A stretch of 64,000 bases of DNA from Escherichia coli. Lineage in GTDB: Bacteria > Pseudomonadota > Gammaproteobacteria > Enterobacterales > Enterobacteriaceae. Shown in pieces: positions 43,301 through 46,300 of the stretch. Position 1 is the first letter of the stretch; each line of letters starts with the position of its first letter. The position numbers are program-made. Location of the stretch: the NCBI RefSeq assembly GCF_044324875.1, contig NZ_CP172185.1, one strand, 5' to 3'.

Positions 43301-46300
43301 AACCGCCGCAACGAGATGATGGCGTGCGTTAAGGGAATGGAGCTTATCGCACAGGAACGCGGCGACGTGGCCTTCTTCGTCACGGTCACAGCCCCGTCTC
43401 GTTTTCACAGCGTCACCGACGCAGGCACGCTGAACCCGAAATACAAAGGCGCAACCGTAAAGGACGCCAGCGACTATCTGGTTTATAACTTCTTCGCCTC
43501 CGCCCGCAAACTCATCAAAAAAGAGAAGCGGGGCTGGTACGGCATTCGCACCGTGGAGCCTCACCACGACGGCACGCCCCACTGGCACATGCTGGTATTC
43601 ACAAGCCCTGAGAACGAAGAGCGCATCACGGAAATCATGTGCAATGCCGCCATTCGCGAAGACCGGGCAGAGCTGGGCGACGACATCACCCCGCGCTTCA
43701 AGTGCGAGAAGATAGATCCCGAAAAAGGCACGCCAACCAGCTACATCGCCACCTACATAGGCAAAGGCATTGACGCCGCTGCATTCGGCGACACGGATCC
43801 AAAAACAGGTAAACCGCCCGTTGACCACGAAAGCGGAAAACCTATGGCGGACACCGTGGAAAACGCCGTCGCCTGGGCGCGCCTGCATCGCATTCGCCAG
43901 TTCCAGTTCTTTGGCCTCCCTTCCCGTCAGGTGTGGCGTGAGTTCCGCCGCCTTGCCGGACAAATGGCACGCAACCCGAAGGGGCCGCAGGCACTGACCA
44001 ACCCCAAAGCCGACGCCCTCCTTGTTGCAGCCGATACGGGGTGTTTTGCCAGCTACATCATGCATCAGGGCGGTGTGCTCATTCCCCGTAGTGAATATCT
44101 GGCCCGCACAGCCTACGTCACCGCAGAAGAGCCGAACAATTACAGCGAATTCCCCGAGCGCATTTACGGTATCCGCATGCCGGAACTGGGGGAGGACTTC
44201 ACGTTATGCACCCACCCGGAAGAGTGGAAAATCGTCAGAAAGGAACCGGAACCAGACAACCGCACGGGCGAGGGTTTTGACCTTCAGGGCGGCCCCGCCG
44301 CCCCTTGGACTCGTGGCAATAACTGTCACCCTGACGAAAAAACAACCAACAACAGCACACAAACCGGACAGTCAGAGTGGGCAAAACTGCCCCCCTTACC
44401 CCCATCGTCGGACGGTTTTGTGAGCTGGTTTAAGTCGCTTAAGAGGCCGGACAGGAAAAAACTACAAAGATTGCTCAAAAAACGCACCGAAGAGAGTCGC
44501 CAGAACGCCAGCGGCGGCACCGACACACCCACCGACACCATTAACCTGGGCGTTGTGCTGCCGGAACTGCCGGAAATCGTGCAAGTCCGCCGCGATCTGG
44601 AAGCGCTGGGCGCGGACTTCCCCGAAGCAATGGCCCATTCCGTCTTTATGGGTGCCCGCGTTCGTCTGGGTAACGGTCGCACCGTTCACCGCGACGAGCA
44701 GACCGGGCGCATCACCGTCACCAGTCTGCAACCGGAGGCGAAACCATGAACCGTTATCATTGTGTACTGCCGCGCCACTACTTCGGTCAGATTATGCGCT
44801 CGCGTATTCCGGCGGTCACGCTGCGAAACCTGAGCACGGTACCGCAGCCGGGCGATGAGCTGGAAATCGCCGTAGCAGGCCCTGACCGTTCAGCCAGCTG
44901 CGTGACCGCCGACGTGCTGAACGCCGTGCCCGTAGGTGGTGACTGGCTGGTTGCCATCCGCTTCCGCCAAGACCCGTTCGCACCTGAACCGCTCACCCCC
45001 GCAGGCCGCATCATGCAGAACTGGCGGGATGAAGGCGCGAAGGCGAACTGCGAAAAACTGATTAACAGGATTGCCACGACAAACCGACATGCCGCGCTGG
45101 CGCGCCGGATATACCCCGCAAAACCGACACAACCAACAGGAGTAAAACGCCCATGAAAAGAATCGCCGGAACCCACAGAGACACAAAAAGACACCAAAAG
45201 CAGCAAAGACACATTGAATAAACGAAAACTGGTGATATGATTTGTTCAAAGATGTTATGATTTATTCATAAGTAACCTTTCAGGCTTAAGTTATGAATAA
45301 ACAGGATTTTGGACTTGATACCCTTTTGAGTATGCATGGTTACCAGCATCACATGGATAACGGGTACTGGTGGAAAATTGAGGCTTACCGGGTAAGTCCA
45401 AGTCCGTTCAGACCTCACGGGATACGCTACAATCTGACGTTACATGACCGCTACAATTCGCGTGTGTTTGGTATGGACAACGCACATGGAATAAAACCGC
45501 CAAAGAAGGGAAGATTTACAGGAAAGTTAACTGTTTATGATCATGTGCACCGTACCCCGGTGGATAAAGGTTATCCCTATGAGTTTGTATCCGCAGAACA
45601 ATTGTTATCTGATTTCTTTGATAACGTTGATCGGCTCATTAACGAAGTTACAAAGGGGAAAGCATGAAAGCCCGCATCGGGATCATCCCGGAAAAAGTCC
45701 TGCGTCAGCGCCTGATTGAAATTGCCAAGGGGGAGCGGAAACCACACCCCGACGAGCCAAGGGTATGGTTTTCATCCATCAATGCGGCGGGTCAGGCGCT
45801 GAGCAATGAAAATATCTCCCTTCTTCGTCTTATGGATGAGGAGAAACCGCAGACCATGACCGAACTTGCGGAGTTATCCGGCAGAAAACTGAGTAACCTG
45901 TCTGTAACCCTGAAAATGCTGAGCAGCTACGGTTTTGTCAGTCTGGAAAAGAAAGGAAATACCGTACACCCGAAGGCACTTTTTACCGATTTTGAAATCA
46001 TCGTTGATCCGTCCGTCGGTTCAGTACATCGCGCCACCGCCCGCCCCTGAAGTGTGCAATAAACAGCCCCGGTCGGGGCTGTTTTTTATTCCAGAATCAG
46101 CTGTTCAGGTGTGCAGCCGTACAGTCTGGCAAGGCGCTCAATATTTGCCCTGCGCGGGCGTTCTGTTCTTTCGAATTCGGACACGGTAGCCTGCCTGATA
46201 CCCAGCGCATCCGCCACCTGCTTTTGCGTCATTCCGCGATAGATTCGCCACGCCGCCTGCATGGTGCAGCCACGTTCCGAGAGGATGTTGACCACCTCGT

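What the first reader, a model, noticed from the sequence alone, without database searches (positions are those of the whole stretch)
45293..46050. Overlapping two-gene cassette of unknown function in the P2 A-Q cargo hotspot: candidate novel defence or toxin-antitoxin module
P2-like prophages carry variable anti-phage cargo between replication gene A and portal gene Q. Here that slot holds a tightly coupled pair (ATGA overlap at 45664-45667): a 124-aa His/Trp/Tyr-rich protein (HGYQHH, YWWKIEAYR, HDRY, DNAHG, YDHVH) with no domain I can name, then a 128-aa winged-helix protein. Small effector plus HTH partner is the classic toxin-antitoxin or abortive-infection layout. I have a vague recollection of uncharacterised small-protein plus wHTH pairs being annotated as putative TA systems, but cannot assign this pair to any named family.
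Basis: partly seen in the sequence, partly recalled or inferred. Interest (0 to 1): 0.8.

Follow-up and report, generated by a model that had tools for sequence, protein, structure and literature searches.

The report
TumE–TumA toxin-antitoxin cassette in P2 prophage
The two overlapping genes are real, but they belong to the TumE–TumA toxin-antitoxin family named and validated in 2023, carried here as movable cargo in a P2-like prophage, so the finding is ordinary except that nobody has tested this family for phage defence.

Summary
ORFs 45293-45667 (124 aa) and 45664-46050 (128 aa) overlap by ATGA and lie between P2 gpA and portal gpQ in a low-GC cargo block.

The pair is not unassignable. 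RefSeq names the identical proteins "toxin-antitoxin system TumE family protein" (DUF6516/PF20126) and "HVO_A0114 family putative DNA-binding protein". TumE–TumA was described in 2023: six pairs were toxic and neutralised in E. coli, and one TumE inhibited translation.

Evidence gathered here:
- A confident TumE model has the published alpha+beta fold and no solved relative.
- TumA lies directly downstream of TumE in 29 of 29 loci, across prophages, plasmids and chromosomes.
- Three E. coli genomes keep tumA alone; none keeps tumE alone.
- A palindrome over the promoter recurs in 6 of 6 loci.
- A fused TumE-linker-TumA model gives pTM 0.79, which supports a direct complex.

This subfamily has the toxin gene first and a ~125-aa wHTH partner. 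The six validated pairs had antitoxins of about 70-106 aa, and the paper describes the partner as usually upstream. No defence catalogue lists the pair, and anti-phage activity is untested.

Verdict: new member of a known kind. The TA reading is supported and the novelty claim is not.

The parts
45214..45261 (+). Two overlapping sigma-70-like promoter candidates. The first is TTGAAT-16-TATGAT with an extended TG (45214..45241). The second is GTGATA-18-TATGAT (45232..45261). Both lie 30-80 nt upstream of tumE.
   Evidence: Consensus scan: 6 sites in the region against 2.3 +/- 1.5 in shuffles. This is a consensus match only and function is inferred.
45233..45272 (+). Candidate TumA operator. There are direct 16-nt repeats TGATATGATTTGTTCA (45233-45248) and TGTTATGATTTATTCA (45253-45268). 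The second contains the palindrome TTATGA-N5-TCATAA (45255-45260 / 45266-45271). The element overlaps both -10 hexamers.
   Evidence: the repeat finder. An equivalent palindrome lies 20-40 nt upstream of tumE in Salmonella, Yersinia, Serratia, Vibrio and Legionella loci. Binding by TumA is inferred.
45293..45667 (+). tumE, encoding a 124-aa TumE/DUF6516-family toxin. Conserved columns are N63 (invariant) and, at >=90%, P41 G43 Y46 L50 H51 R57 G60 D62 H65 D83 H84 H86 Y96 D107 F108.
45664..46050 (+). tumA, encoding a 128-aa HVO_A0114/MarR-type winged-helix protein. It is the predicted antitoxin and autorepressor and is translationally coupled to tumE (ATGA overlap, AAGGGGAA Shine-Dalgarno inside the tumE 3' end).
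46061..46084 (+). Intrinsic-terminator-like hairpin (10-bp stem, 6 GC pairs, T-run). It closes the tumEA operon and lies between it and the convergent HTH/RelE operon.
   Evidence: It is conserved in the H8 variant locus.

Best explanation
This is a self-contained type II toxin-antitoxin operon of the TumE-TumA superfamily, carried as horizontally exchanged cargo in the gpA-gpQ hotspot of a P2-like prophage.

A sigma-70 promoter at about 45214-45261 drives a translationally coupled bicistron. The first gene encodes TumE, a 124-aa alpha+beta protein of the DUF6516 family. Characterised relatives of TumE arrest E. coli growth by shutting down translation. The conserved His/Asp/Asn cluster (PHG, LH, DNAH, DHxH) most likely forms a metal-dependent hydrolytic site, possibly an RNase site.

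The second gene encodes TumA, a 128-aa winged-helix protein. It is proposed to bind TumE directly and neutralise it. As a dimer it is also proposed to bind the palindrome that overlaps the -10 element and so repress its own operon. Loss or degradation of TumA would free TumE, for example after loss of the element, transcription shut-off or phage infection.

Shown here: gene structure, family membership by annotation and homology, fold, strict pairing and order, the orphan-antitoxin variant, and the recurring upstream palindrome. Inferred: toxicity of this member, its translation target, the catalytic role of the conserved residues, the TumE:TumA complex (model only) and autorepression.
For: - RefSeq names the 100%-identical proteins 'TumE family' and 'HVO_A0114 family'.
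- 118 of the 120 listed homologues carry a precomputed PF20126 hit. PF20126 is unmarked (E<=1e-5) in the Legionella, Vibrio and Serratia homologues at 58-60% identity, and weak in the closest enterobacterial ones.
- PMC10584680: six gammaproteobacterial TumE proteins were toxic in E. coli and neutralised by their cognate TumA. A. tepidum TumE lowered 35S-Met incorporation. RNase activity was proposed but unproven.
- The AF2 model has pLDDT 89.1 and pTM 0.80, with an N-terminal helix, an antiparallel sheet and a long C-terminal helix. This matches the published fold description.
- TumA lies immediately downstream in 29 of 29 TumE loci, and the identities of the two proteins fall in parallel. 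Three plasmids from different classes show the same arrangement.
- In E. coli, 6 genomes have the pair, 3 have tumA only and none has tumE only. In H8 the last ~65 nt of tumE survive as a remnant in front of an intact tumA.
- An upstream palindrome is present in 6 of 6 loci.
- The fused TumE-(GGGGS)6-TumA model has pTM 0.79, with both halves at pLDDT about 90-97 and the linker below 50.
Against: - The session's own Pfam, NCBIfam, PHROGs and PADLOC scans gave no hit for protein 1. Membership therefore rests on public annotation and precomputed hits, and these are only 'weak' for the nearest relatives.
- I could not obtain the six validated TumE/TumA sequences, so there is no direct comparison.
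- The validated pairs come from subcluster 1a. Their antitoxin synthetic fragments are 289-388 bp, which implies roughly 70-106 aa, and the paper describes the partner as predominantly upstream. Here the toxin gene comes first and the partner is 128 aa. Neutralisation by this wHTH type has therefore not been shown experimentally.
- pTM of a linker fusion is an indirect proxy for an interface, and no negative control could be run.
- No biochemical activity is known for any TumE.
Confidence: 0.78

Rival explanations
1. The biological role of the cassette is abortive-infection anti-phage defence. The prophage carries tumEA to kill or arrest its host when a competing phage infects. Infection would deplete or displace TumA and release TumE. 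This reading is compatible with the TA mechanism and concerns what the module is for.
For: - The cassette sits in the published P2 gpA-gpQ defence hotspot (PMC9122126).
- Cassettes with TumE 80-90% identical occupy the same slot in P2-like phages whose gpA and portal are only 30-68% identical to those here. That is the swapping behaviour described for defence cargo.
- In Legionella the pair lies next to an integrase, HipAB and Eco57I/ResIII genes. In Vibrio it lies next to HEPN/Polbeta and HNH genes.
- In a siphovirus-like contig it is a moron between the tail genes and the tape measure gene.
- 6 of 8 unknown P4 hotspot loci gave protection in a 2026 preprint.
Against: - There is no match to any PADLOC model.
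- No paper in the searched library tests TumE against phages.
- In the Rousset census this arrangement appears only twice and was not curated or tested.
- Only 3 of the 8 additional cloned P2-hotspot systems protected in that study.
- In Yersinia and Serratia the pair sits among housekeeping genes.
Confidence: 0.33
2. The cassette is an addiction or stabilisation module whose main effect is to keep the mobile element in the population by post-segregational killing. It would have no role in phage exclusion.
For: - 31 plasmids carry relatives, including conjugative and IncR plasmids.
- In Variovorax the pair lies next to the replication initiator gene.
- This is the classical behaviour of type II TA modules (established knowledge).
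Against: - A prophage integrated in the chromosome gains little from post-segregational killing.
- The same hotspot holds a second TA pair (RelE/HTH), which suggests accumulation of cargo more than a need for stability.
- Sinorhizobium megaplasmid copies appear split into two pieces, so the module is dispensable there.
Confidence: 0.3
3. The pair is not a toxin-antitoxin system. In this subfamily TumE would be a non-toxic small enzyme or metal-binding protein, and the wHTH would simply be its transcriptional regulator.
For: - This toxin-first subfamily with a 125-aa partner has never been tested.
- Protein 1 is only a weak PF20126 hit in the closest relatives.
- The conserved His/Asp residues could bind a metal without nuclease activity.
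- An Enterobacter plasmid has an extra overlapping upstream gene that could be the true antitoxin there.
Against: - All six tested family members were toxic.
- tumE never occurs without tumA in 29 of 29 loci, while tumA occurs alone three times.
- Translational coupling and the predicted complex (pTM 0.79) are not expected of a plain regulator-target pair.
- The pair moves as a unit among phages, plasmids and islands.
Confidence: 0.07

Closest known systems
TumE-TumA toxin-antitoxin superfamily (Durairaj et al., Nature 2023; DUF6516 / Pfam PF20126; validated subcluster 1a pairs from Thioploca, Thiothrix, Crenothrix, Methylotuvimicrobium, an Ectothiorhodospiraceae bacterium and Allochromatium)
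   Same: - The toxin family is the same according to RefSeq naming and precomputed Pfam hits.
- The toxin size (~120 aa) is the same, and so is the alpha+beta fold with no solved relative.
- Both are bicistronic with a DNA-binding partner.
- A toxin:antitoxin complex is predicted in both.
   Different: - The gene order here is toxin first. The paper reports DUF6516 mostly downstream of its partner in clusters 1, 2, 4 and 6.
- The partner here is a 128-aa HVO_A0114/MarR-type wHTH with a conserved ~40-residue N-terminal extension. The validated antitoxin constructs imply about 70-106 aa.
- The carrier here is a P2-like prophage hotspot.
- No experiment exists for this member or this arrangement.
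Toxin-first type II TA modules with an HTH antitoxin (higBA-type; from general knowledge), including the RelE/HTH pair next door at 46086-46806
   Same: The toxin gene precedes the antitoxin gene. The antitoxin carries a DNA-binding domain. A promoter-overlapping repeat is the likely operator. The genes are small, coupled and mobile.
P2 gpA-gpQ hotspot cargo (old, tin, retrons, DUF4238 and others; Rousset et al. 2022)
   Same: The cassette occupies the same cos-proximal slot, has low GC, is swapped between divergent P2-like phages, and has its own promoter and terminator.
   Different: Anti-phage activity has been shown for old/tin and a few other systems. None has been shown for tumEA, which is absent from PADLOC.

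Membership tests
TumE (DUF6516, Pfam PF20126) toxin family | Sequence match to the family profile | tested here: met
   The identical protein WP_029490435.1 is named 'toxin-antitoxin system TumE family protein' or 'DUF6516 family protein' in 6 RefSeq E. coli genomes. 118 of the 120 listed homologues carry precomputed PF20126. The hit is unmarked (E<=1e-5) in the Legionella, Vibrio and Serratia homologues and 'weak' in the E. coli, Salmonella and Yersinia type.
TumE (DUF6516, Pfam PF20126) toxin family | Alpha+beta fold in which two helices pack on an antiparallel sheet of about seven strands, with no confident PDB match | tested here: met
TumE (DUF6516, Pfam PF20126) toxin family | Direct homology to one of the six experimentally validated TumE proteins | not testable with these tools
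   The supplement lists accessions only. The sequences could not be retrieved from any available collection.
TumE-TumA TA system | Conserved two-gene arrangement with a DNA-binding partner | tested here: met
   TumA lies immediately downstream in 29 of 29 TumE loci, with TumE identity from 35% to 100%. Three plasmids from different bacterial classes show the same arrangement.
TumE-TumA TA system | Gene order and antitoxin size as in the validated subcluster 1a (partner upstream, about 70-106 aa) | tested here: not met
   The toxin gene is first here and the partner is 128 aa. The validated TumA synthetic fragments are 289-388 bp including flanks. The paper states that the partner is predominantly upstream. 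Gene order is not a defining feature of the superfamily, which the paper describes as using diverse antitoxins.
TumE-TumA TA system | Toxin arrests growth, the cognate antitoxin neutralises it, and translation is inhibited | not testable with these tools
   This needs expression and metabolic-labelling experiments. It has been shown only for other family members.
Type II toxin-antitoxin systems (general) | The protein antitoxin binds the toxin directly | tested here: met
   This is a computational proxy only. The single-chain TumE-(GGGGS)6-TumA AF2 model, built from 13 paired and 56 unpaired rows, has pTM 0.79 over 282 residues with the linker at pLDDT below 50. No PAE, coordinates or negative control were available.
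Type II toxin-antitoxin systems (general) | The antitoxin can persist without the toxin, but the toxin does not persist without the antitoxin | tested here: met
   Of 5426 E. coli genomes, 6 have the pair, 3 have tumA only and none has tumE only. The H8 locus keeps a ~65-nt tumE 3' remnant before an intact tumA.
Type II toxin-antitoxin systems (general) | Autoregulatory operator at the promoter | tested here: inconclusive
   A palindrome or repeat overlapping the -10-like hexamer is present 20-40 nt upstream of tumE in 6 of 6 loci from 6 genera. Binding has not been tested.
HVO_A0114 / MarR-type winged-helix DNA-binding proteins | Profile match and a wHTH secondary structure | tested here: met
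   Pfam PF25212 at 3.8e-16 and MarR at 3.8e-4. phrog_11214 at 3e-20. The model shows three helices followed by a beta-hairpin wing. RefSeq gives the same family name.
Catalogued anti-phage defence systems (PADLOC-DB 2.0) | Match of the effector to a defence-system model | tested here: not met
   Protein 1 matched no family. Protein 2 gave only generic wHTH matches to CasR/Csa3/CARF C-termini.

The most novel reading that the evidence does not exclude
The toxin-first TumE plus HVO_A0114-wHTH subfamily is an uncatalogued abortive-infection defence system that temperate phages trade through their cargo hotspots: the P2 gpA-gpQ slot and the siphovirus tail-module moron site. TumE would be a metal-dependent nuclease with a fold that has no solved relative, using the invariant DNAH / DHxH / PHG residues as its active site.
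Probability: 0.3. Interest if true: 0.55.

Novelty: new member of a known kind. Interest (0 to 1): 0.25.

Why it matters
The immediate value is that it corrects the first-stage call. The pair already has a name and an experimentally supported function class, so it should not be pursued as a new kind of system.

Three residual points are of interest:
- A validated toxin family that is absent from defence catalogues sits in a proven defence hotspot and moves between unrelated phages, plasmids and islands. That makes it a cheap and well-defined candidate for an anti-phage test.
- This subfamily uses a larger wHTH partner in the reverse gene order from the validated pairs. Testing it would extend the TumE-TumA definition.
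- The biochemical activity of TumE is still unknown. The conserved His/Asp/Asn residues listed here give a mutagenesis target.

Tried and rejected
- Library scans of protein 1 (NCBIfam, PADLOC, PHROGs, Pfam-A) returned nothing useful. The family was identified through annotated RefSeq records and precomputed Pfam labels instead.
- PDB sequence searches of both proteins found no match.
- The isolated-phage GenBank collection has no DNA or protein match.
- Rfam at a permissive threshold finds no RNA family in 44500-48000, so an RNA antitoxin (type I or III) is not indicated.
- The search for related loci with the diverse alignment failed because no conserved stretch was available. It was rerun with the single protein.
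- The first fused alignment (A3) had 19 stray rows and was discarded. It was rebuilt with linker anchors as A4.
- The supplement of the TumE paper holds no sequences, so direct comparison with the validated proteins was not possible.
- Structural or housekeeping phage roles were considered for either protein and rejected. There is no such homology, and the pair occurs on plasmids and in non-phage chromosomal sites.

Full report
**Observation.** The + strand carries an ATG-initiated ORF at 45293..45667 (124 aa) and a second at 45664..46050 (128 aa). The sequence reads ...AAGCATGAAAGCC... with the ATG at 45664-45666 and the TGA at 45665-45667, so the ATGA overlap is exact.

Upstream lie a gpA-type replication endonuclease (42260..44749) and a 136-aa ORF that overlaps its stop codon. 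Downstream lie a convergent HTH/RelE pair, a 234-aa ORF and the P2 portal gene on the minus strand. GC falls from about 0.58-0.62 in gpA and portal to about 0.44-0.50 between 45100 and 47900. The whole block is therefore compositionally foreign cargo.

**Identity.** My own scans of protein 1 against NCBIfam, PADLOC, PHROGs and Pfam-A returned nothing. Protein 2 hit Pfam HVO_A0114 (3.8e-16), MarR (3.8e-4) and phrog_11214 (3e-20).

Annotated genomes settled the question:
- The 951-bp region is 99.8-100% identical in six complete E. coli genomes. There RefSeq calls the two proteins "toxin-antitoxin system TumE family protein" (or "DUF6516 family protein") and "HVO_A0114 family putative DNA-binding protein".
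- Of the 120 listed homologues of protein 1, 118 carry a precomputed PF20126 (TumE) label, and several are named TumE or DUF6516 by their sources.
- An exhaustive search finds 698 cluster representatives at E<=1e-3, so this is a sizeable family.

**What is known about the family.** TumE-TumA was defined by Durairaj et al. 2023 (PMC10584680). That paper reports the following:
- DUF6516 proteins adopt an alpha+beta fold, with two helices on a seven-stranded antiparallel sheet and no confident PDB match.
- They sit in bicistrons with diverse partners.
- Six gammaproteobacterial TumE proteins were toxic in E. coli and fully neutralised by their cognate TumA.
- Allochromatium tepidum TumE reduced 35S-methionine incorporation.
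- RNase activity was proposed but not shown.

The paper also says that DUF6516 is predominantly downstream of its partner in clusters 1, 2, 4 and 6. The six tested pairs all come from subcluster 1a. Their antitoxin synthetic fragments are only 289-388 bp including the Shine-Dalgarno sequence and cloning flanks, which implies antitoxins of roughly 70-106 aa. No other paper in the searched library studies TumE or tests it against phages.

**Membership tests run here.**
- *Conservation.* N63 is invariant. P41, G43, Y46, L50, H51, R57, G60, D62, H65, D83, H84, H86, Y96, D107 and F108 are at least 90% conserved. I read these as a probable metal-dependent catalytic site. That reading is an inference.
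- *Pairing.* A tblastn survey of 30 loci found TumA immediately downstream of TumE in all 29 loci that have TumE, often with a 1-4-nt overlap. The loci came from E. coli, Salmonella, Yersinia, Serratia, Legionella, Vibrio, metagenomes and 12 IMG/VR viral contigs. The identities of the two proteins fall in parallel, from 100%/100% down to about 35%/37%. The same order holds on plasmids of Enterobacter, Variovorax and Geoalkalibacter.
- *Asymmetry of loss.* In E. coli, three genomes retain only tumA and none retains only tumE. In strain 24A16CRGN010 the promoter and all but the last ~65 nt of tumE have been replaced by two unrelated ORFs and a terminator. An intact tumA (91% amino-acid identity) follows the tumE remnant. 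This is the decay pattern expected if TumE is toxic without TumA.
- *Regulation.* Two promoter-like sites lie 30-80 nt upstream of tumE, and a strong terminator follows tumA. Two 16-nt direct repeats overlap the -10 hexamers, and the second contains TTATGA-N5-TCATAA. An equivalent palindrome is present at the same distance in Salmonella, Yersinia, Serratia, Vibrio and Legionella. This fits autorepression by a dimeric wHTH but is untested.
- *Complex.* A single-chain TumE-(GGGGS)6-TumA model, built from 13 paired and 56 unpaired rows, gave pTM 0.79. Both halves had pLDDT about 90-97 and the linker was below 50. Two ~125-residue domains with no confident mutual placement would be expected to give roughly 0.4-0.5. 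I take this as support for direct binding, with the caveat that I had no PAE, no coordinates and no negative control.

**Context and mobility.** The gpA-gpQ, cos-proximal region is the published P2 diversity and defence hotspot, with 1,650 arrangements in E. coli (PMC9122126). That study's supplementary census lists this exact TumA (WP_029400441) as "hypothetical", together with the neighbouring HTH and ParE/RelE-type genes. It appears only twice there, below their curation threshold, and was not tested.

Cassettes with TumE 80-90% identical occupy the same slot in Salmonella and IMG/VR P2-like elements whose gpA and portal are only 30-68% identical to those here. The cassette therefore moves independently of the phage backbone. 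In another viral contig the pair is a moron between the major tail protein and the tape measure gene of a siphovirus-like element. In Legionella and Vibrio it lies in islands with HipAB, Eco57I/ResIII, HEPN/Polbeta and HNH genes. In Yersinia and Serratia it lies among housekeeping genes.

**Interpretation.** The best-supported explanation is a type II TA operon of the TumE-TumA superfamily. In it TumE is a translation-targeting toxin and TumA is the neutralising, autorepressing wHTH antitoxin.

What the module does for the prophage is not decided by my evidence. Abortive-infection defence and addiction are both plausible. I put defence at about one in three. That estimate rests on the hotspot and island contexts, set against the absence of any catalogue match or experiment.

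The reading that the pair is not a TA system at all is unlikely, given the strict pairing, the orphan-antitoxin pattern and the toxicity of all six tested relatives.

**Comparison and novelty.** This is a member of a known, named family, and the exact proteins are already labelled as such in RefSeq. It differs from the experimentally validated pairs in gene order (toxin first), in partner size and type (a 128-aa HVO_A0114/MarR wHTH with a conserved N-terminal extension) and in carrier (phage hotspot cargo). I could not compare it directly with the validated sequences.

I therefore file it as a new member of a known kind and score interest low. The one testable novelty is a possible uncatalogued anti-phage role.

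Noticed in passing
window 46086-46880, minus strand: A second, convergent toxin-first TA pair. It comprises a RelE/StbE-family toxin (46534..46806; TIGR02385 at 1.1e-4; RefSeq 'type II toxin-antitoxin system RelE family toxin') followed by an Xre-type HTH protein (46086..46460). A near-consensus promoter, TTGACA-17-TATATT, lies at 46880..46852. The pair shares the 46061-46084 terminator region with tumEA.
   Followed up: partly
window 47189-47893 (+): A 234-aa ORF of unknown function between the RelE pair and the portal gene. 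It has no NCBIfam or PADLOC hit. It is conserved at 42-52% identity next to the portal gene in other P2-like contigs (L022-L024). RefSeq annotates a shorter start.
   Followed up: partly
L013 4237-4967 (E. coli 24A16CRGN010; corresponds to window ~45160-45600): In 3 E. coli genomes tumE and its promoter are replaced by a 50-aa ORF, a 193-aa ORF and a terminator. These ORFs have no hit in NCBIfam or PADLOC. A ~65-nt tumE 3' remnant and an intact tumA remain. The function of the replacement genes is unknown.
   Followed up: partly
L031 1675-2737 (Enterobacter hormaechei IncR plasmid pCAV1668-85): A three-gene version of the module. An extra 105-aa ORF with no Pfam hit overlaps the start of the DUF6516 gene, and the wHTH gene follows (41% identical to TumA). 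This ORF might correspond to the short upstream antitoxins of the validated pairs.
   Followed up: partly
L026 4400-10381 (IMG/VR contig IMGVR_UViG_2887885255_000001): The tumEA pair (about 62-68% identity) is inserted as a moron between the major tail protein / phrog_791 genes and the tape measure gene of a siphovirus-like element. This is a second type of phage cargo site.
   Followed up: yes
window 44746-45156 (+): A 136-aa ORF overlapping the gpA stop codon. Its GC is high like the phage backbone. It is conserved at about 46% identity in another P2-like contig (L022). It has no family hit and its function is unknown.
   Followed up: no
window 45187-45212: Two exact copies of AAAGACAC, 18 nt apart, lie in an A/C-rich stretch just upstream of the tumE promoter. 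This may be chance.
   Followed up: no
Sinorhizobium meliloti/medicae megaplasmids (H21-H26, H29-H30): TumE relatives there align in two pieces and carry no annotated gene, which suggests frameshifted pseudogenes.
   Followed up: no
protein 1 (window 45293-45664), tool libraries: The session's Pfam-A and NCBIfam scans gave no hit at all for protein 1, even at E<=10. Precomputed tables and RefSeq nevertheless assign PF20126/TumE to it and its relatives. NCBIfam likewise returned no HVO_A0114 model for protein 2. The family assignment therefore rests on external annotation.
   Followed up: partly
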